Shown here: positions 4,634-29,465 of the stretch, one piece after another
Position numbering within the stretch: position 1 is the stretch's first letter
Layout: the number at the start of each line of letters is the position of its first letter
Assembly: GCA_016784445.1 (NCBI GenBank)
Contig: JADHUR010000001.1
Coordinates: 19,464-83,463 of the forward strand
Reading direction: 5' to 3'
Origin: Patescibacteria group bacterium
Lineage (GTDB): Bacteria; Patescibacteriota; Patescibacteriia; UBA1558
Length of the DNA: 64,000 nucleotides
The notes under the pieces: model-generated
What the model saw: the letters and a program-made list of their open reading frames with translations, nothing else
Database searches by the model: none
What the model was told of the DNA's origin: nothing
Position numbers and translations under genes: made by a program

Positions 4634-4727
4634 AATTATTATACCACTTTTACCTATTTATTGACAACGATACCTCAACATGGTTAGATTAAGTACTGAT
4701 CGTTAATATTTAACAAGGGAGGCTAAA

Positions 4728-4952
4728 ATGACCAGATTATTTTATGAGGACATTATAGCCCTCATCAAAACACAAATTGAACATGGACTTTCCATAGTTC
4801 AAGTTGAAAAATTAGGTAATATTCTTTCTGTAGAAGCTACTTCTGTAAATAAAGAAAATATACTATCTTTGTTGCAGGAGATTATAGATAATAAAGCTCC
4901 TGAAGATATTTCTGTCTATTTAAAAAAATTACAAAAGAAAATTGGAGGATAA
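4728..4952 (+). CDS. small hypothetical protein
   Basis: Strong SD GGGAGG upstream of the ATG; 74 aa. Confidence 0.4.
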   Translation: MTRLFYEDIIALIKTQIEHGLSIVQVEKLGNILSVEATSVNKENILSLLQEIIDNKAPEDISVYLKKLQKKIGG

Positions 4953-5202
4953 AATGTCAAAACAAAAACCAACCGCTCATCAAGTAATCCTAGGTAAAAT
5001 TCAAAATGCTGCAAAATCAGCAATGCATTTACCGGAATTTGAAAAAGATTTAAAATTGCTTTGTTCAATTCTGCATGAAATGCATATTCCAAAACAAGCT
5101 GTTCCCAATGTTTGTTTTAATAAAACTTGGAGAACTCTACAGTCAGTATCCGGAAACATCAACTCCTGGAAAATGTATTATGGATCTTATCCTGGATATT
5201 GA
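4942..5202 (+). CDS. small hypothetical protein
   Basis: SD GGAGGA upstream. An intrinsic terminator hairpin follows (accgttgata/tatcagcggt plus a T-run, about 5228-5256). Confidence 0.4.
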   Translation: MEDKMSKQKPTAHQVILGKIQNAAKSAMHLPEFEKDLKLLCSILHEMHIPKQAVPNVCFNKTWRTLQSVSGNINSWKMYYGSYPGY

Positions 5203-5422
5203 AAACAGGAAATAAAAAATTTAAAAAAAGACCGTTGATAATTATCAGCGGTTTTATTTTTATAATAATATTAACTTAATAAAACGACCCACAAACCTAC
5301 ATAATTAGTAATAATAACCACAACAGCTATAAGCAAATGTTCAAGAGCAATATGCCATGGTTTATTACCCTACTCTTTAGCTATATAGAAACTAAATCCT
5401 TTTTTAATAGATGTACTCATAT

Positions 5423-5847: not shown

Positions 5848-6249
5848 TTATTTAATATTTTTTAAATCTCCTTTTAAAATAATAGGTTTCATAGCCTCTA
5901 TCTCATCACTGTATCCAAGATCTGGTACGGGATTCAATATAAATATCTTCTTATCTAAAACATAAGCAAATGCCATCTCAATCAATGTATTACCACCAAC
6001 ATAATTACTAACTCCATGTTTATCTAAATTAATAACTAATATTGCGTCTGCTTTCTTAATTTCTTCAAAATAGACCTTAAATGGATCAATTTCCATTTTT
6101 CGCCATTTATCCTCATCTACTATTTCACCTGAAGCATGTTGTTCAACATCATCTTGAATTATTACTTCATGACCTAATTTCTCCATATCTTCTTTAGCCT
6201 TAATCATTTCCTTTGCAAAGGCCATACTACTACAAATTGCTATTTTCAT
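5848..6249 (-). CDS. nucleoside 2-deoxyribosyltransferase-like fold protein (second paralogous fold)
   Basis: MKIAICSSMAF...ADAILVINLDKHGVSNYVGGNTLIEMAFAYVLDKKIFIL matches the NDT/Rcl motif D..GT.FE.GYA.A.gKP with the catalytic Glu retained. Confidence 0.55.
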   Translation of the reverse strand: MKIAICSSMAFAKEMIKAKEDMEKLGHEVIIQDDVEQHASGEIVDEDKWRKMEIDPFKVYFEEIKKADAILVINLDKHGVSNYVGGNTLIEMAFAYVLDKKIFILNPVPDLGYSDEIEAMKPIILKGDLKNIK

Positions 6250-6253
6250 ATTT

Positions 6254-6706
6254 TTAGTAAATTACTTCATTATTATCTAAATCTCTAAACATTCTCTTAA
6301 TCTTAGTTTTTAACATAACCCCACCCTTATTGTTCATAAAATCCTCAATACCTACTCTATGGCGTAATAATGTATTTAATGGTAGATTCTCTGGTGAAAA
6401 ATATTCAACTTTATCTGCTTCATCTGTTGTTATTAATTTACCACCAACAACCTCACACTCAAAATCAAAACTTATATCTTCAGCATTAGGCTTTGAATAG
6501 ACATTCACCAGCTTCTTAACCTTAACATCTAGGCCCGTCTCCTCTTTAACTTCTCTTACCACCGCATCCCAGGGTGACTCTCCCTTTTCCATGCGTCCAC
6601 CTGGCAAATTCCATTTCATTAAATCATCTCTATGGCAAAGTAAAACTTTACCTTCTTTGTTAGGAATTATAGCAAATCCACCTATTGTTACTTTATTACT
6701 TTTCAT
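6254..6706 (-). CDS. NUDIX hydrolase
   Basis: Canonical Nudix box GGRMEKGESPWDAVVREVKEETGL (GX5EX7REUXEEXGU). Confidence 0.85.
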   Translation of the reverse strand: MKSNKVTIGGFAIIPNKEGKVLLCHRDDLMKWNLPGGRMEKGESPWDAVVREVKEETGLDVKVKKLVNVYSKPNAEDISFDFECEVVGGKLITTDEADKVEYFSPENLPLNTLLRHRVGIEDFMNNKGGVMLKTKIKRMFRDLDNNEVIY

Positions 6707-6708
6707 GA

Positions 6709-6867
6709 TTAGCTCATGAACTTTCCACGACTAAAACCTAAAACACTACCGCAATGAGGACAAGAATACATTATCTCTTGTTTAATAAACCCCACTCCTT
6801 TAGTTTCTCTCTGAACTGTTTCTAATTTTATTTCCCCTTTACAATGGGGACATTTTGAAGGACTCAT
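6709..6867 (-). CDS. small zinc-ribbon protein (about 52 aa)
   Basis: Hand translation gives MSPSKCPHCKGEIKLETVQRETKGVGFIKQEIMYSCPHCGSVLGFSRGKFMS, with two CxxC pairs. It fills the gap between the NUDIX and MazG genes exactly and is below the ORF-track size cut-off. Confidence 0.4.
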   Translation of the reverse strand: MSPSKCPHCKGEIKLETVQRETKGVGFIKQEIMYSCPHCGSVLGFSRGKFMS

Positions 6868-6877
6868 ATGTTTTAAA

Positions 6878-7138
6878 TTATCTATCTTTATTCTTATTTA
6901 ATTTATGTAAAAATACTTCCTCTAAATCTAGCTTATTTATCCAACATAATTTATTTAATTGCCATAATACATCTGCAATCTCATCTTTAAGCTCTTCTCG
7001 ATCATCTTCGCGAATAGCTTCACAAACCTCCCCGACCTCTTCAACTAAATGCAATACAACTTCAGTCTCATCTTTTGGTAAACAATCTTTAATTGTCATC
7101 TGCTCCATTTGAGCAGCTTGTAATTCTGATAGGTTCAT
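6878..7138 (-). CDS. MazG-like nucleotide pyrophosphohydrolase (small all-alpha NTP-PPase)
   Basis: LVEEVGEVCEAIRE...ELKDEIADVLWQL matches the MazG EExxE...DExaDvL signature. Confidence 0.75.
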   Translation of the reverse strand: MNLSELQAAQMEQMTIKDCLPKDETEVVLHLVEEVGEVCEAIREDDREELKDEIADVLWQLNKLCWINKLDLEEVFLHKLNKNKDR

Positions 7139-7139
7139 A

Positions 7140-7478
7140 TTATTTATCTACTTTTTTAATTCTCTTAATTACAGCATCTTGAAATATTCGAAAAGCATGT
7201 CGTTTTTCTTTCACATAAATATAAGGCATGCCTATGATGAAACCACACTTATTACATTTTAAAACCTTCACATCTTTTATATTCTTCTTTTGTAAATCAA
7301 CTAATTTATCTGGACTCAATATTCTATCCATATACATTCTTCGCAAATTTCCAGGACCATCCTTTTGATACACAGCTACAATATTCTCACACTTACGGCA
7401 CATAATATTAAGTAAACGAGAATATCCACCCCTCGCCGATTTATACTTATCTTTCTTTATTGCTATCGATTTTTTCAT
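7140..7478 (-). CDS. zinc-ribbon protein, unknown function
   Basis: CRKCEN ... CNKCG is a C4 pattern; the protein is basic. It is tightly packed between the MazG-like gene and rarA. Confidence 0.4.
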   Translation of the reverse strand: MKKSIAIKKDKYKSARGGYSRLLNIMCRKCENIVAVYQKDGPGNLRRMYMDRILSPDKLVDLQKKNIKDVKVLKCNKCGFIIGMPYIYVKEKRHAFRIFQDAVIKRIKKVDK

Positions 7479-7482
7479 AGCT

Positions 7483-8724
7483 TTAATCTAAATATTTTTT
7501 ATTCTTAAGCTTCTCCGGTAAATATGTCTGATCTTCTTTATAATCATGATCTGGAGAATATTTATAACCATCACCATAACCTAAGTTTTTCATAAGCTTT
7601 GTAGGCGCATTACGAATATGTAATGGTACTGGCAAATGCATAGTAGCTTTAACATCTTGTTTAACCTTATTATATGCTCTATACAATTCATTACTCTTCT
7701 TACATTTTGCCATATATACAACAGCTTGCGCAAGGGCTAGTTCACACTCAGGCATTCCAATATTATGACAGGCATTATGAGCTGTTACTGCTTGAACAAG
7801 TGCTTGTGAATTAGCCAGGCCAATATCTTCTGATGCAAATCTAATTAATCTCCTGGCTACATATAATGGATTCTCACCAGCCTCTAGCATTCTACTAAGC
7901 CAATATAAAGAAGCATCAGCATCTGAACCACGCATACTCTTATGCAGGGCGGATATAATATTATAATGCTGCTCTCCATCTTTATCATAATATAGATTAC
8001 TATTCTGTATAGCTTGCTCAAAATCGTCTTTAATAATGCTATGTGGTCCTTTTCCCTTAGACTTAGTTAAAACTGCAAACTCGAGTGCATTTAAGGCCAC
8101 ACGGGCATCTCCAGATGCTAGACTAGCTAAATATTTAAGATCTTTTAACTTAATATTCATATCATGCTTTCCTAAGCCATTAACCTTATCTTTTAAAGCT
8201 TTCTTTAATATCTTTACAATATCTTCAATCTGCAGGGGTTCTAATACAAAAACCCTACAACGAGAAAGTAAAGCAGAAATAACTTCAAAGGACGGATTCT
8301 CTGTAGTTGCTCCAATTAAAGTAATTATTCCCCTTTCCACATATGGTAAAAGACCGTCCTGCTGCGCTTTAGTCCAACGATGTATTTCATCTATAAAAAG
8401 TATAGTTTTCTTCTGATGATGCTTTAAATTATCCTGAGCATTAGCAATAACCTGCTGCAAATCTTTCTTACCACTTGAAACAGCAGATAATTGTATAAAT
8501 TCTGAATTTGTCTTATTAGCAATAATAGCAGCCAGTGTTGTTTTACCAGTACCTGGTGGTCCCCAGAATATCATAGATGGTAATTGATCATTAGCAATTG
8601 CTTGCCTTAATATTTTATCCTTAGCTACAATATCTTTTTGACCAAAAAACTGCGTCCAATCATTAGCCCGCATTCTATCTGCCAGTGGTCTTGCTTTTAA
8701 TAAATTGTTATCAAATAAATCCAT
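7483..8724 (-). CDS. rarA: replication-associated recombination protein A (AAA+ ATPase RarA/MgsA)
   Basis: Walker A GPPGTGKTT, Walker B ILFIDEIHR, sensor LLSRCRVF, and the RarA C-terminal helical domain. Confidence 0.9.
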   Translation of the reverse strand: MDLFDNNLLKARPLADRMRANDWTQFFGQKDIVAKDKILRQAIANDQLPSMIFWGPPGTGKTTLAAIIANKTNSEFIQLSAVSSGKKDLQQVIANAQDNLKHHQKKTILFIDEIHRWTKAQQDGLLPYVERGIITLIGATTENPSFEVISALLSRCRVFVLEPLQIEDIVKILKKALKDKVNGLGKHDMNIKLKDLKYLASLASGDARVALNALEFAVLTKSKGKGPHSIIKDDFEQAIQNSNLYYDKDGEQHYNIISALHKSMRGSDADASLYWLSRMLEAGENPLYVARRLIRFASEDIGLANSQALVQAVTAHNACHNIGMPECELALAQAVVYMAKCKKSNELYRAYNKVKQDVKATMHLPVPLHIRNAPTKLMKNLGYGDGYKYSPDHDYKEDQTYLPEKLKNKKYLD

Positions 8725-8783
8725 ATATCTTTAATTATCGTAGCACAAACATAAAAAAAGTACTATAATATTATTAGGAGGTA

Positions 8784-9176
8784 ATGAACCTTAATAATGG
8801 AGGTGTTATCATGTTACAATTAGTTGGTACAGATCCATTTTTTATGTCTATTGACGAGTTTGATGAGGTAGCAATGAAAGGACTGGATTCATTTCAATCT
8901 GGATTGCTTAAATTAGCGGGCTTTGTCCCTATTCATGAACTGGATCAAGGATCGCAAGATGGCTGGAATTTATTTCAGTCTGCACTACGCAAATCTGCTT
9001 CAAGTTTGCCAAATTTCAGTATTGATGGACGTATGGCCGAGCGCCATACAGTACGTTTTTCTGAATTGTTCAACGATAGACCACTGGGCATTACATTAGA
9101 ACAACAACAGTCAGCTGTTGCTGAACTTATGATATGCTTAGATCCAAAAATTGCATTACAAATAACGCAAGGCTAG
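8784..9176 (+). CDS. hypothetical protein (GC-richer stand-alone gene)
   Basis: AGGAGG SD upstream and a terminator hairpin downstream; no recognisable motif. Confidence 0.45.
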   Translation: MNLNNGGVIMLQLVGTDPFFMSIDEFDEVAMKGLDSFQSGLLKLAGFVPIHELDQGSQDGWNLFQSALRKSASSLPNFSIDGRMAERHTVRFSELFNDRPLGITLEQQQSAVAELMICLDPKIALQITQG

Positions 9177-9203
9177 GAGTTTCAATTGAAACATGAAATC
9201 ATT

Positions 9204-9245
9204 CCCCTTAACTAAAGTTTAATACTAAAGTTAGGGGGTTTTTGT
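9204..9245 (+). terminator. intrinsic terminator (stem ccccttaact/agttaggggg plus a T-run)
   Basis: A hairpin of about 10 bp with one G-U pair, followed by TTTTTGTT directly after the 8784..9176 stop. Confidence 0.5.
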
Positions 9246-9261
9246 TATCTTTTACAACCCC

Positions 9262-9290
9262 TTGACAAATCATTAAAAGTATGCTATCAT
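9262..9290 (+). promoter_or_regulatory. sigma70-like promoter TTGACA-N17-TATCAT
   Basis: ttgaca at 9262-9267, a 17-nt spacer, and tatcat at 9285-9290, about 60 nt upstream of the 9353 start. Confidence 0.5.
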
Positions 9291-9352
9291 ACTAAGTATT
9301 GATGGTAAATTGACATTAAAATAAACAATAAATAACAACAAGGAGGCATTAT

Positions 9353-9601
9353 ATGCTTCGATGTAATCACGCCAATTGTGGCGCTAAAAAGGGTGACTGT
9401 TCACCATATCAGGCTGGAGATGTATGTCCCAATGGACATTCAATAACAACAGCTGATCTGGCTAAGGCTGAACCCCATTCAGTCGAGACACAATCTCCCA
9501 CTACATTTGGGGTACACTGTCCAAAATGTGGACACCCTAATGATGATGGTACTCAACGCCAAAGGGGCGATGAGTGCTCAAATTGTCATGAGATTCTTTA
9601 A
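9353..9601 (+). CDS. small Cys/His-rich zinc-ribbon protein
   Basis: AAGGAGG SD; CNHANCG...CPNGH...HCPKCGH...CSNCH; the gene is GC-rich. Confidence 0.45.
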   Translation: MLRCNHANCGAKKGDCSPYQAGDVCPNGHSITTADLAKAEPHSVETQSPTTFGVHCPKCGHPNDDGTQRQRGDECSNCHEIL

Positions 9602-9621
9602 AAGGATTCTCAAAAAAAATT

Positions 9622-9655
9622 CCCCTCGCTATATTAATATGGTGAGGGGTTTTTC
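9622..9655 (+). terminator. intrinsic terminator (cccctc/gagggg plus TTTTT)
   Basis: A hairpin at 9623-9649 followed by a T-run. Confidence 0.55.
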
Positions 9656-9663
9656 ATTTACCA

Positions 9664-9692
9664 TTGACAATGAGCTAATAATGCATTATACT
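9664..9692 (+). promoter_or_regulatory. sigma70-like promoter TTGACA-N17-TATACT
   Basis: ttgaca at 9664-9669 and tatact at 9687-9692, upstream of the 9734 gene. Confidence 0.5.
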
Positions 9693-9733
9693 ATTTTAAC
9701 TGAAAAATGGAGCTCATTAACAAAGGAGAATAA

Positions 9734-10060
9734 ATGACTGTAAGTACTGAATTCATTATGTTAAAACATGATGTGAAATCCAAAGATCTTTTGCAAATGC
9801 ATGCATATTTACACAAGCTTAGAACTCAAGCAAATCCATTAGCAATATTACAGAGTAATATTCTAATGGCCTTGATTGATAACAGGAAAGATAAACAAGG
9901 CTTTTGTGGAGTTAAGGCTGAAGAGTTTATTCATGACAATACTGAACAAATGGTTCTGCGCAATCAAACAATTCAAGCCTGGAATAATCTTACGAGCACC
10001 TTGCAAAATCTCGCACCAAATGCAATCCTTACGGGACTACCTGAAATGCATAATGCATAA
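9734..10060 (+). CDS. hypothetical protein
   Basis: SD AAAGGAG upstream; a terminator downstream. Confidence 0.45.
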   Translation: MTVSTEFIMLKHDVKSKDLLQMHAYLHKLRTQANPLAILQSNILMALIDNRKDKQGFCGVKAEEFIHDNTEQMVLRNQTIQAWNNLTSTLQNLAPNAILTGLPEMHNA

Positions 10061-10071
10061 AAGAATAATTA

Positions 10072-10102
10072 GAACCTCACTAACTAGTGAGGTTCTTTAT
10101 TT
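10072..10102 (+). terminator. intrinsic terminator (perfect 10-bp stem gaacctcact/agtgaggttc plus TTTATTT)
   Basis: A perfect inverted repeat followed by a T-rich tract. Confidence 0.6.
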
Positions 10103-10105
10103 ATC

Positions 10106-10134
10106 TTGACTTTATATCCTTAATATAGTAAAGT
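10106..10134 (+). promoter_or_regulatory. possible promoter TTGACT-N17-TAAAGT
   Basis: Good -35 box, weak -10 box, upstream of the 10168 gene. Confidence 0.35.
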
Positions 10135-10167
10135 GCTCTAAACAATCGCACATTAAAAGGAGATGAA

Positions 10168-10557
10168 ATGGAAACTTTAATAATAGTAGCATTACTGATA
10201 ACTGCCTCACTCACACGTTTATACTTTCATTTTAAGATTGAACAGAACAATCAACCAAAGCCAGTCATGTCTATTTATTACATTGTCATGACTAATGAAG
10301 AAAAAAAAGCTTTAGAGGATTTGAAAGCATACTACGAGAGTAAAGAAACAGCTCACGCTAAACAATGCTTAACATTTCTTAATCATTTAATCTCTGGTCG
10401 AGAAATTAATCTGGGAAATTATGCAAAGATTGACTCAACGCTTCAAGTCAAAGAAAATCTCTATCATTCCTTTCAAGAAATTGGTAAGAAATTACGGCAT
10501 AAAAAGTTTAAAAGCTTTGTACTTCACAGTATTCCAGATGAAATCTTAGCACAATAA
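10168..10557 (+). CDS. hypothetical protein with N-terminal TM helix
   Basis: SD AAAGGAG upstream. A bidirectional terminator lies at about 10571-10596. Confidence 0.45.
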   Translation: METLIIVALLITASLTRLYFHFKIEQNNQPKPVMSIYYIVMTNEEKKALEDLKAYYESKETAHAKQCLTFLNHLISGREINLGNYAKIDSTLQVKENLYHSFQEIGKKLRHKKFKSFVLHSIPDEILAQ

Positions 10558-10593
10558 AAACTTAATCAAAAAACCCTGACAAATGTCGGGGTT

Positions 10594-11133
10594 TTATAAT
10601 AATTTCTTTTTTTTAAGCATCATCCGCCAATACCAGTCTTGTATAATATCTCTCCTTACTCCCAAATCGTCCATTAATTGTTTAATCTGTTTAATAGCTG
10701 TTTGTCTATTATTAGCATTCATTATCTCAACTTCTATAAAACTACCGAGACCTTTCACCTCATCTATAAATATATTGAAATGTCTATACTCATAATAGCT
10801 TCTAACTTTGTCTACTCTTACCTCTTCAATAAATTCTAAATGTTTAAGTATTACATCCATCATATCTCCATCAGATATTGTTACCTCTCTTTCTTTACCA
10901 CCATATATACCAGAAGGAAGATGGTATTCAAAAGAAGCTGTACCAGATGTCATATCTTTTCTAACTCTTAAGCGAGGAGATTTAAAACTAATAAATCTCT
11001 TACCATTTTTTGGGGAGAAATATATATCTACATAATGTTTCTTGGATTTATTACGTATACCTAAAAGCGTAAACTTTTTTAGTAAACGCTTCTTATTCTT
11101 TATCTTTGCTTTCATCTCAATTTCTAATTGCAT
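10594..11133 (-). CDS. CYTH-domain protein (class IV adenylate cyclase / triphosphate tunnel metalloenzyme family)
   Basis: N-terminal EIEMKAKI (the ExExK motif), a central SGTASFEYHLP...ISDGDMM block, and a C-terminal LGSFIEVEI. These are typical of CyaB/ThTPase-like CYTH domains. Confidence 0.6.
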   Translation of the reverse strand: MQLEIEMKAKIKNKKRLLKKFTLLGIRNKSKKHYVDIYFSPKNGKRFISFKSPRLRVRKDMTSGTASFEYHLPSGIYGGKEREVTISDGDMMDVILKHLEFIEEVRVDKVRSYYEYRHFNIFIDEVKGLGSFIEVEIMNANNRQTAIKQIKQLMDDLGVRRDIIQDWYWRMMLKKKKLL

Positions 11134-29100: not shown

Positions 29101-29465
29101 ATTATTTAAAAATTTAAATTAATAAAGTGAAATTAATTCTTTAGCAAAGCTAACAACTGGTTGAATCAAATACTCCCATATTCCTATAACCAATAATGTA
29201 TAACTTATTAATATTGAGCTAAACAAAATCTTTTCTTGTTGATCCATATGTGTTAATAAAAAAATCTACGGATAAGCCGTAGAAAAGTATAGCAAAACTG
29301 CTATTTATTTACCTAAATGAGATATTTAAGGCCTTTAGCGACCACTCACTTTCTACGGTAAAAATAGTATATATTATATATATCAACATGTCAATGCTTT
29401 GACCTGTTTAAATATAAGTGCTATCTTCAAAATAGCAGTTGGTTATTGCTAGAAAGGAGGTTTAA

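What the first reader, a model, noticed from the sequence alone, without database searches (positions are those of the whole stretch)
8784..10600. Plus-strand islet of four stand-alone small genes with own promoters, strong SDs, terminators and elevated GC
Seen in the sequence:
- Within a long minus-strand stretch, four plus-strand ORFs of 130, 82, 108 and 129 aa sit in a row.
- Each is preceded by an AGGAGG-type SD, and three are preceded by TTGACA-N17-TATNNT boxes.
- Each is followed by a hairpin plus T-run.
- By eye their GC (low 40s %) is clearly above the surrounding roughly 30%.
- One is a Cys/His-rich zinc ribbon. None has a recognisable function.

Inference: this is either a horizontally acquired or phage-derived cassette, or a set of highly and individually expressed small proteins, for example stress-related or toxin-like.
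Basis: seen in the sequence. Interest (0 to 1): 0.5.

Follow-up and report, generated by a model that had tools for sequence, protein, structure and literature searches.

The report
Hypervariable small-gene array in CPR bacterium
Four tiny genes of unknown function, each with its own strong promoter and terminator, sit at one fixed spot in a clade of ultra-small Komeilibacteria; there the coding sequences are swapped between lineages and diverge far faster than the neighbouring genes, while the expression signals stay the same.

Summary
The four plus-strand ORFs, their Shine-Dalgarno sites, promoters and terminator hairpins are real. The GC claim is overstated: the islet is 35.0% GC against 32.1% for the window, and only B reaches 45%.

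The window is a Patescibacteria (Ca. Komeilibacteria-like) MAG. The islet is not a recent foreign or phage insert. The same array lies between the CYTH gene and rarA/mgsA in five related lineages. A 79%-related genome has one gene there, and a 77%-related genome has none.

All four genes encode proteins (dN/dS 0.17-0.49, flanks 0.02-0.09). They have no homologues outside this clade and match no known family or fold.

The main result is a decoupled genealogy:
- Against the closest relative, flanking proteins are 95-99% identical. A, B and C are 55%, 36% and 49% identical, with saturated synonymous sites, while the spacers between them stay 81-89% identical.
- Two other relatives whose flanks differ by 3% share an almost identical islet (4 differences where 54 are expected).
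- The four gene trees disagree with one another.
- One lineage carries an unrelated gene behind the invariant B promoter, and another has that promoter duplicated.

Best reading: a recombination-shuffled array of single-gene expression slots, probably encoding binding proteins involved in some biological conflict. That function is inferred, not shown.

The parts
7483..8724 (-). rarA/mgsA (replication-associated recombination protein A). Conserved left anchor of the slot, transcribed divergently from A.
   Evidence: Pfam MgsA_C, AAA and AAA_assoc_2. 94.7% aa identity to L013. Used to fetch relatives.
8741..8769 (+). Promoter region of A: perfect -10 TATAAT at 8764-8769 with a weak -35. Part of spacer IG1, which is shared with the divergent mgsA.
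   Evidence: Sequence. The block TATCGTAGCA.AAACATAA.AAAAGTACTATAAT is near-invariant in four lineages and also in L025.
8811..9176 (+). Gene A, 121 aa (the 130-aa form starting at 8784 is unlikely). Acidic (pI 4.6). Contains an internal repeat of about 27 aa (LDxxxQxGWxxFQSxxxKS) present in one or two copies among orthologues.
   Evidence: Only 3 true homologues among 1.84 billion representative proteins. dN/dS 0.21-0.42. AF2 model unusable, pLDDT 45.
9204..9238 (+). Intrinsic terminator of A
   Evidence: -16.5 kcal/mol, z -3.55. Kept in 5 lineages.
9262..9290 (+). B-slot promoter TTGACAAA-N4-TAAAAGTATGCTATCAT (extended -10)
   Evidence: 11 of 12 consensus matches. Invariant in 5 lineages, including L025 where the downstream CDS is unrelated. 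Duplicated in L021. Unique in the window.
9291..9352 (+). 5' leader of B with SD AAGGAGG (9340-9346). The first ~25 nt are conserved across lineages.
9353..9601 (+). Gene B, 82 aa: a double zinc-knuckle/zinc-ribbon protein (C4, C9, C25, H29; C56, C59, C75, C78 invariant) with a hypervariable linker. Apparently not annotated in the NCBI record of this MAG.
   Evidence: 36% aa identity to L013 but 52-56% to the more distant L019 and L021. dN/dS 0.30-0.45.
9622..9649 (+). Intrinsic terminator of B
   Evidence: 12-bp stem plus T-run. -20.3 kcal/mol, z -6.1. 4 compensated pairs.
9664..9692 (+). Promoter of C, TTGACA-17-TATACT
   Evidence: 11 of 12 matches. Same hexamers as the promoter ahead of the L10 leader. 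IG3 is 80-97% identical to L013 although the CDSs on both sides are not alignable.
9734..10060 (+). Gene C, 108 aa: a three-helix bundle with a small sheet; no known fold relative.
10071..10096 (+). Intrinsic terminator of C (perfect palindrome, also reads as a terminator on the - strand)
   Evidence: z -5.6; 5 compensated pairs
10106..10134 (+). Promoter of D, TTGACT-17-TAAAGT; the leader ...GCTCTAAACAATCGCACATTAAAAGGAGA follows.
   Evidence: 9 of 12 matches. The -35 and the leader are conserved in four lineages although the D proteins are 19-29% identical.
10168..10557 (+). Gene D, 129 aa, basic (pI 8.9), with an N-terminal hydrophobic segment (residues 4-22) found only in the window/L013 type. 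NCBI's 89-aa call is probably truncated.
   Evidence: 84.5% identity to L013, dN/dS 0.18.
10570..10595 (.). Terminator hairpin shared by the convergent D and CYTH genes
   Evidence: -16 kcal/mol, z -5.0
10594..11133 (-). CYTH-domain protein. Conserved right anchor of the slot.
   Evidence: Pfam CYTH 3.7e-14. 97.2% identity to L013.

Best explanation
SHOWN.
- The islet is a lineage-restricted array of four monocistronic small-protein genes. It occupies a fixed chromosomal slot between the CYTH gene and rarA/mgsA in one clade of Ca. Komeilibacteria (Patescibacteria/CPR).
- Each gene is a self-contained expression unit: a sigma-70 consensus promoter, a short leader with a strong SD, the CDS, and an intrinsic terminator.
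- The genes are translated and under purifying selection, but their proteins evolve 3-10 times faster than those of the flanking genes.
- Their genealogy is decoupled from the chromosome around them. Alleles, and sometimes unrelated genes, replace one another while the promoter and terminator scaffold is retained.

INFERRED (mechanism). Homologous recombination with DNA from related lineages swaps either the whole ~2-kb islet or single coding blocks. The conserved regulatory spacers and the conserved flanks serve as the homology.

INFERRED (function, much weaker). The products are abundant, non-enzymatic binding proteins: an acidic repeat protein, a double zinc ribbon, a helical bundle and a membrane-anchored alpha/beta protein. 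They would act in an antagonistic or partner-specific interaction, such as immunity-type or anti-defence-type inhibition, or interaction with a host cell or phage. Selection of that kind would maintain old, divergent alleles and occasionally sweep one through a population.
For: Synteny and growth of the slot. The array is present in L013 and L018 (95% MgsA identity), L019 (88%), L021 (87%) and L025. L023 (79%) has one gene in the slot. L024 (77%) has none, with CYTH 33 bp from MgsA.

Coding status. ORFs and SDs are kept through saturated divergence. dN/dS is 0.17-0.49 against 0.02-0.09 in the flanks. The Cys/His ligands of B are invariant. The C model has pLDDT 84.5.

Decoupled genealogy.
1. 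Window vs L013/L018: neighbouring proteins are 91-99% identical, but A is 55%, B 36%, C 49% and D 84.5%.
2. At residues that are conserved, identical codons make up 0.80-0.84 in the flanks but 0.58, 0.52 and 0.32 in A, B and C. Codon usage alone would give 0.50-0.59. These alleles are therefore far older than the flanks, which amino-acid selection alone cannot produce.
3. The spacers between the genes are 81-89% identical. A 40-nt identity profile shows sharp steps at the borders of B and C; the steps around A are more gradual.
4. L013 vs L018: the flanks differ by 2.4-4.7%, but a ~2-kb tract covering the islet has 4 differences where 54 are expected (P = 2e-18).
5. The gene trees conflict. 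C groups the window with L019, A groups L013 with L019, and D groups the window with L013.

Slot behaviour. The B promoter is invariant in five lineages. In L025 it drives an unrelated 81-aa non-zinc protein. In L021 the promoter is duplicated, with an extra gene behind the first copy.

Expression strength. Two of the five best sigma-70 matches in the window are the B and C promoters, and another precedes the L10 leader.

No enzyme or known family. Pfam, NCBIfam, PHROGs, PADLOC and PDB sequence and fold searches were all negative.
Against: - There is no direct evidence of function: no homology to any immunity, anti-defence, toxin or effector family.
- No dN/dS exceeds 1, so positive selection is not demonstrated.
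- A, B and C have no signal peptide.
- The neighbourhood contains other variable spots (NUDIX at 43.5% identity, presence/absence of p112 and p133, and the second + strand pair at 40-49%). The region may therefore simply be a recombination-prone plasticity zone.
- Only six independent lineages were available, and all are metagenome assemblies. Strain-chimeric assembly cannot be fully excluded for the relatives. The window version, though, is identical in 8 loci representing at least 6 assemblies, and L013 and L018 are independent assemblies.
- No transcript data exist, so promoter strength is inferred from sequence alone.
- Breakpoints exactly at CDS edges are inferred from one pairwise profile.
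Confidence: 0.55

Rival explanations
1. These are ordinary young 'orphan' genes under weak constraint, with no conflict role. The four are lineage-specific small proteins of marginal or redundant function that drift quickly. The mosaic pattern reflects the background rate of homologous recombination in these populations, which is more visible here because the sequences diverge fast.
For: dN/dS is 0.17-0.49 and never above 1. The families are restricted to one clade. Other nearby genes also vary in sequence or presence (NUDIX, p112, p133, the second + strand pair). Window vs L019 synonymous divergence of A-C (1.15-1.47) is only slightly above the flanks (0.66-1.01).
Against: Marginal genes would not be expected to keep consensus promoters, SDs and terminators invariant while their CDSs saturate. 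ORFs of 80-130 codons stay open in AT-rich DNA in every lineage. The near-identical islet in L013 and L018, against 3% diverged flanks (P = 2e-18), looks like a selected or very recent transfer. Other small hypothetical genes nearby (p115, p144, p236) are 96-97% conserved.
Confidence: 0.3
2. This is a recently acquired foreign or phage-derived cassette, analogous to phage 'morons', inserted into a housekeeping stretch.
For: Each gene has the promoter-gene-terminator anatomy of a moron. GC, GC3 and codon typicality are mildly atypical. One phage contig carries an exact copy of the 25 specified bases of the B promoter.
Against: The array is syntenic in five related lineages. No relative of A-D was found in IMG/VR, PHROGs or BFVD. 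There are no flanking direct or inverted repeats, integrase or tRNA. The phage contig is 47% GC and shares only the promoter-like 32 nt.
Confidence: 0.05
3. The coding blocks undergo targeted hypermutation, by a diversity-generating retroelement or another local mutator, rather than allele exchange.
For: Divergence is concentrated in the coding blocks while the spacers stay similar. DGRs are common in CPR genomes (own knowledge: Paul et al. 2017, Nat Microbiol).
Against: L013 and L018 differ by 3% in the flanks yet have almost no differences in the islet. That is the opposite of a continuously mutating locus. No template-repeat-like copy of any islet segment exists in the 64-kb window. No reverse transcriptase appears in the neighbouring gene tables. 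Whole genes are affected rather than a ~100-bp C-terminal variable region. In L025 the B slot holds a non-homologous gene.
Confidence: 0.03
4. The ORFs are spurious, and the region encodes non-coding RNAs or nothing at all.
For: NCBI annotation omits B and shortens C and D. There is no family match.
Against: dN/dS is below 0.5 in all four. The reading frames, SDs and start contexts are conserved in five lineages. The zinc ligands are invariant. The C model is confident. There is no Rfam match.
Confidence: 0.02

Closest known systems
Phage 'morons' (own knowledge: Juhala et al. 2000 J Mol Biol; Hendrix et al. 2000 Trends Microbiol)
   Same: Each gene is an autonomous unit of promoter, small ORF and intrinsic terminator. 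The units sit between conserved genes in the opposite orientation, have slightly deviant composition and no recognisable function.
   Different: The islet is not in a phage or prophage. The flanks are chromosomal housekeeping genes, the array is vertically syntenic in a bacterial clade, and no viral relatives were found.
[quoted passage not shown]
   Same: Both are arrays of small, rapidly diverging, non-enzymatic genes that vary between strains. Divergent alleles are retained and selected in populations.
   Different: There is no adjacent recombinase and no SUKH or other known immunity domain. No toxin genes are nearby, and the organism is a CPR bacterium with no known T6SS context. The resemblance is functional speculation only.
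Integron cassette arrays
   Same: Both are a fixed chromosomal site holding a variable series of small, mostly unknown, same-orientation genes that can be replaced by unrelated genes.
   Different: There is no intI integrase and no attC-like repeats. Every gene has its own promoter and terminator, whereas integron cassettes are typically promoterless and read from Pc. Exchange appears to occur by homologous rather than site-specific recombination.
Hypervariable islands and gene-specific sweeps in natural bacterial populations (own knowledge: e.g. Shapiro et al. 2012 Science; Bendall et al. 2016 ISME J; SAR11 HVR2)
   Same: The locus genealogy is decoupled from the flanks. It is far more diverged than the genome between close relatives and far less diverged between others, and its chromosomal position is fixed.
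   Different: The scale is very small (1.8 kb, four genes). It encodes small soluble proteins rather than surface-glycan or transport genes. The mosaic is resolved to single CDS blocks between conserved regulatory spacers.
Small stand-alone zinc-ribbon proteins (Pfam Zn_Ribbon_1 / Zn_ribbon_3 type)
   Same: B has two Cys/His knuckle pairs with invariant ligands and a weak Pfam signal at the second knuckle.
   Different: Scores are below the Pfam thresholds (17.8 bits against 25). The linker is hypervariable in sequence and length (75-105 aa in total). No functional subfamily can be assigned.

Membership tests
Phage moron | Autonomous transcription unit: own promoter, ORF and own terminator | tested here: met
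   Promoter and terminator scans and folds. Conserved in relatives.
Phage moron | Located within a phage or prophage genome, between conserved phage genes | tested here: not met
   The flanks are rarA/mgsA, CYTH and a MacB-type ABC transporter. No viral relatives were found.
Phage moron | Nucleotide composition differs from the surrounding genome | tested here: inconclusive
   GC is +3 points overall. GC3 is 0.27-0.29 against 0.20 +/- 0.05 (z 1.4-2.0 per gene).
Integron | intI tyrosine recombinase next to the array | tested here: not met
   No recombinase appears in the gene tables 10 kb either side, in the window or in relatives.
Integron | attC-type imperfect inverted repeats after each cassette; cassettes mostly promoterless | tested here: not met
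   The repeats found are ordinary GC-rich terminator hairpins followed by T-runs, with no shared attC-like family. Each gene has its own promoter.
rAID / orphan immunity array | Associated recombinase, and genes belonging to known immunity families (e.g. SUKH) | tested here: not met
   There is no recombinase. No Pfam immunity-domain or PADLOC hit was found for 10 family members.
rAID / orphan immunity array | Products neutralise cognate toxins | not testable with these tools
   Needs co-expression or binding assays.
Diversity-generating retroelement target | Reverse transcriptase plus template repeat/variable repeat pair with adenine-specific differences | tested here: not met
   The 64-kb window has no repeat of islet sequence. 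No RT appears in the neighbouring gene tables. The islet is invariant between L013 and L018. The rest of the genome was not examined.
Type II toxin-antitoxin module | Bicistronic operon of a toxin and an antitoxin from known families | tested here: not met
   The genes are separated by terminators and have separate promoters. No TA family hit was found.
Zinc ribbon (gene B) | Two CxxC-type knuckles providing four zinc ligands | tested here: met
   C56, C59, C75 and C78 are invariant. A second site, C4, C9, C25 and H29, is also invariant.
Zinc ribbon (gene B) | Score above the Pfam gathering threshold for a zinc-ribbon family | tested here: not met
   Best hit is PF13240 at 17.8 bits against a cut-off of 25.
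Hypervariable island / gene-specific sweep locus | Fixed position, with divergence decoupled from the flanks in both directions, and incongruent gene trees | tested here: met

The most novel reading that the evidence does not exclude
The conserved promoter and terminator blocks are more than expression signals. They act as portable homology arms that let these DNA-scavenging, naturally transformable CPR cells capture and swap unrelated small genes into ready-made, highly expressed 'slots'. That would be an integron-like cassette platform with no integrase. Its cargo would be a fast-turnover repertoire of inhibitor or immunity proteins that decides which hosts, competitors or phages a Komeilibacteria lineage can cope with.
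Probability: 0.15. Interest if true: 0.75.

Novelty: new variant of a known kind. Interest (0 to 1): 0.5.

Why it matters
CPR/Patescibacteria genomes are tiny, and about half of their genes are unknown. What decides their partner specificity and phage resistance is largely open.

A 1.8-kb locus that is kept at one position, driven by promoters as consensus-like as a ribosomal-protein promoter, and yet exchanged and replaced among close relatives, is a strong candidate for a strain-specific interaction determinant. It supplies four new, small and tractable protein families to test.

The pattern of invariant regulatory scaffold with swappable coding block would also be a useful model of how streamlined genomes without mobile-element machinery renew accessory genes.

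Practically, the analysis adds one unannotated gene (B) and suggests corrected starts for A, C and D in the public MAG annotation.

Tried and rejected
- A single search with A, B, C and D concatenated returned nothing. Self-matches were also missing, although single-protein queries do return self. That null is therefore unreliable and was not used.
- Exhaustive HMMER search for A: three real homologues. Three long repeat proteins (PKD/Big_2, HTH repeats, FG-GAP) scored only through summed weak repeats and were rejected as spurious.
- Profile-profile tests for paralogy among the A, C and D families were not significant.
- PDB profile searches for all four families found nothing significant.
- Pfam, PHROGs, PADLOC and NCBIfam found nothing above threshold.
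- Rfam found no RNA family in the islet.
- The repeat search around 8.75 and 10.6 kb gave only chance-level 12-nt matches.
- Same-strain contigs L001-L008 are 100% identical and so carry no information.
- The genome-contig scan gave only relatives at 51-66% MgsA identity, with no synteny.
- L022 (83% MgsA identity) has a broken neighbourhood.
- The A model was too poor to search with.
- Fold searches with the C model gave only generic helical bundles. Small inhibitors such as AcrIIC4 and Tsi6 appear among the non-significant Foldseek rows and are not evidence.
- My early statement that GC3 is 'ordinary' was wrong once a gene-wise background was computed.
- A literature search found no description of this locus or of Komeilibacteria small-gene arrays.


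Full report
**1. What is in the sequence**

The window is AT-rich, with 32.1% GC. Between 1145 and 25505, every ORF of at least 90 aa that is not nested inside a longer opposite-strand ORF lies on the minus strand, apart from two small plus-strand groups. The flagged group holds four ORFs: A 8784/8811-9176, B 9353-9601, C 9734-10060 and D 10168-10557. It lies between rarA/mgsA (7483-8724, -) and a CYTH-domain gene (10594-11133, -).

- **SD sites.** All four have strong SD sequences.
- **Promoters.** B and C are preceded by TTGACA-17-TATCAT (with a TG extension) and TTGACA-17-TATACT, each 11 of 12 matches. D has TTGACT-17-TAAAGT. A has a perfect TATAAT and a weak -35.
- **Promoter rarity.** The scan as a whole is not enriched (17 sites found, 15.9 expected). 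However, only five sites in the 64-kb window reach 11 of 12. Two of them are these, and another sits in front of the Rfam L10 leader.
- **Terminators.** Each gene is followed by a GC-rich hairpin and a T-run that folds far better than shuffled controls, z -3.6 to -6.1.
- **GC.** The claim is only partly right. The islet is 35.0% GC, with A 39%, B 45%, C 35% and D 31.5%. Against 59 background genes, GC3 is modestly but consistently raised (0.27-0.29 against 0.204 +/- 0.046). Synonymous codon choice is slightly atypical, z about -1.7 to -2.0 each.

**2. Source and annotation**

The exact proteins occur in a Patescibacteria MAG (NCBI proteins MBL7021735-37, locus tags ISR92_00175-185) and on contigs from several ENA/Logan samples. 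Across the islet those contigs are 100% identical to the window. The closest named relatives are Ca. Komeilibacteria.

NCBI lists consecutive accessions for A, a shorter C (100 aa) and a shorter D (89 aa), and apparently no B. Comparison with relatives supports four points:
- A starts at 8811, because the 8784 ATG is missing or out of frame in three of five orthologues.
- C is the 108-aa form.
- D is the 129-aa form.
- B is a real gene.

This rests.

**3. Not a foreign or phage insert**

None of the four proteins has a relative in IMG/VR, PHROGs, PADLOC, Pfam or NCBIfam. There are no meaningful flanking repeats and no RNA family.

An exhaustive HMMER scan of 1.84 billion representatives found only three true homologues of A, all 95-124 aa. 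A profile of C found five clusters among 5.8 billion proteins.

Loci were fetched through MgsA homologues and one C homologue. They show the same plus-strand array between CYTH and MgsA in these relatives:
- L013 and L018 (95% MgsA identity)
- L019 (88%)
- L021 (87%, with two extra genes)
- L025

Further out the array shrinks:
- L020 (85%) has two different genes there.
- L023 (79%) has one gene.
- L024 (77%) has none; CYTH ends 33 bp before MgsA.

**4. The genes are real**

Reading frames, SDs and start contexts persist through saturating divergence. dN/dS is 0.17-0.49 for A-D, against 0.02-0.09 for MgsA, CYTH and MacB.

- **B** keeps eight invariant Cys/His ligands flanking a hypervariable linker.
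- **A** is acidic and carries a ~27-aa repeat present once or twice among orthologues. Its model was unusable.
- **D** is basic, with an N-terminal hydrophobic segment only in the window/L013 type.

**5. The unexpected part: a decoupled, mosaic genealogy**

*Window against its closest relatives (L013/L018).*
- Conserved neighbours are 90-99% identical in protein. Examples are MacB 98-99%, CYTH 97-98%, MgsA 95%, and the small hypotheticals p115, p144 and p236 at 96-97%.
- A is 55%, B 36%, C 49% and D 84.5% identical.
- This is not just fast protein evolution. At residues that are conserved, the fraction of identical codons is 0.80-0.84 in the flanks. It is 0.58, 0.52 and 0.32 in A, B and C, at or below the 0.50-0.59 expected from codon usage alone. 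NG86 dS is saturated for B and C.
- The spacers between the genes are 81-89% identical, similar to neutral sites in the flanks.
- A 40-nt identity profile steps sharply at the CDS borders. Spacer IG3 is 0.80-0.97, lying between B at 0.29-0.52 and C at 0.42-0.68.
- IG3 is not intrinsically constrained to that degree, because it is poorly conserved between the window and L019.

*The reverse pattern in L013 against L018.* Their flanks differ by 2.4-4.7%. A ~2-kb tract running from the last 135 nt of CYTH to the A promoter has 4 differences where 54 are expected (P = 2e-18).

*Conflicting gene trees.*
- C: window-L019 73%, window-L013 48.5%.
- B: window-L021 56% and window-L019 52%, against window-L013 36%.
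- A: L013-L019 66%, against window-L013 55%.
- D: window-L013 84.5%, against 19-29% to L019 and L021.

*Ruling out hypermutation.* A locally hypermutating locus is excluded by the L013/L018 identity. There is also no template-like repeat in the window.

**6. Slots**

The regulatory blocks behave as a conserved scaffold. The B promoter, TTGACAAA-N4-TAAAAGTATGCTATCAT, and the first ~25 nt of its leader are invariant in five lineages. In L025 this promoter drives an unrelated 81-aa protein with no zinc ligands. In L021 the promoter occurs twice, the first copy in front of an additional gene. It occurs once in the window.

The D promoter and leader are conserved in four lineages whose D proteins are 19-29% identical. 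The terminator hairpins persist, with 2, 4 and 5 compensated pairs respectively.

**7. Interpretation**

*Shown:* this is a clade-restricted array of four monocistronic, probably strongly expressed small-protein genes. Their alleles have histories independent of the surrounding chromosome and of each other, and they sit on a conserved promoter/terminator scaffold.

*Inferred:* exchange occurs by homologous recombination. It sometimes covers the whole islet (L013/L018) and sometimes a single coding block. The conserved spacers and flanks provide the homology.

*Inferred more weakly:* the four products are non-enzymatic, their alleles are old and divergent, one allele shows an apparent sweep, and one slot holds a non-homologous replacement. 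That combination is the population-genetic signature usually seen at loci involved in antagonistic or partner-specific interactions, such as immunity, anti-defence or host/phage interplay. No homology supports a specific role. No dN/dS exceeds 1. The neighbourhood also has other variable genes (NUDIX, p112/p133, and a second plus-strand pair). The main rival is therefore weakly constrained orphan genes in a recombination-prone zone.

**8. Comparison with known systems**

- **Phage morons.** The units look like morons anatomically, but they are not in a phage.
- **Integron cassettes.** The array behaves like a cassette array, but it lacks an integrase and attC sites, and every gene has its own promoter.
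- **rAID orphan immunity arrays (PMC12247911).** It resembles them in variability, but it lacks the recombinase and any immunity domain.
- **Hypervariable island or gene-specific sweep locus.** This is the best fit. The unusual features are the fine (single-CDS) mosaic and the invariant expression scaffold.

I rate it a new variant of a known kind, with four new clade-restricted protein families.

**9. Caveats**

- All sequences are metagenome assemblies, and only six independent lineages were available.
- There are no expression data.
- Promoter strength, and the placement of breakpoints at CDS edges, are inferred from sequence.
- One exact match of the B promoter in a 47%-GC phage contig shares nothing else with the window. 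It is probably a convergent consensus promoter.

Noticed in passing
window 4661-5255 (+), ORFs 4728-4952 and 4954-5202: There is a second plus-strand islet in the minus-strand stretch. It is a bicistronic pair (74 and 82 aa) with its own TTGACA-18-TAGATT promoter and a 12-bp terminator hairpin at 5228-5255. It matches no family. It is also hypervariable: 40% and 49% identity to L018, where the flanking genes are 91-97% identical, and the relatives' genes differ in size.
   Followed up: partly
window 5848-7478 (-): The other side of mgsA is also plastic. NUDIX (6254-6706) is only 43.5% identical to L018. p133 (5848-6249) has no match in L018, and p112 (7140-7478) is missing from L018 but 90% identical in L013. 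Relatives carry different small genes there (DUF1653, Ser_hydrolase, DUF4145). mgsA is thus a conserved island between two variable zones.
   Followed up: partly
window 9353-9601, 9734-10060, 10168-10557: Public annotation of this MAG appears incomplete. The accessions for A, C and D are consecutive (MBL7021735-37), which suggests the zinc-ribbon gene B is not called. C is called as 100 aa and D as 89 aa, whereas conserved SDs and N-termini in relatives support 108 and 129 aa.
   Followed up: yes
window 29249-29394 (-): A ribosomal protein L10 leader (Rfam RF00557, 46.6 bits) is preceded by a TTGACA-17-TATACT promoter, the same hexamers as the promoter of gene C. It is a useful internal yardstick for a strong promoter in this organism.
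   Followed up: no
L026 13128-13156 (IMG/VR UViG_3300022690_000257): A 47%-GC phage contig (large ORFs only, not scanned against any protein library) contains an exact match to the 25 specified bases of the B-slot promoter, just after a 2262-aa ORF. Nothing else is similar to the window at DNA or protein level. It is probably a convergent consensus promoter, but the exactness of the spacer match is unexplained.
   Followed up: partly
window 9291-9316 (leader of B): The first ~25 nt of the B transcript (ACTAAGTATTGATGGTAAATTGACA) are conserved in five lineages, even where the CDS has been replaced. In L013 and L021 the distal part reads TTGTCAA, an inverted copy of the -35 TTGACAA. It could be an operator or an RNA element.
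   Followed up: no
L013 4607-4630 (-), orthologous to window 10037-10060: In L013 and L018, gene C ends five codons early (GAA to TAA). The old C-terminal codons ATG CAT AAT GCA TAA (MHNA*) survive untranslated downstream. High nucleotide identity with the window resumes at this point.
   Followed up: partly
window 8850-9000 (gene A): A contains a tandem duplication of a ~27-residue unit (..LDxxxQxGWxxFQSxxxKS). It is present twice in the window, L013, L019 and L025, and once in L021 and in P0129, so repeat number varies within the family.
   Followed up: partly
tool behaviour: A concatenated four-protein query to the word-indexed protein search returned no hits, not even the proteins themselves. 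Single-protein and profile queries do return self. Nulls from concatenated queries should not be trusted.
   Followed up: yes
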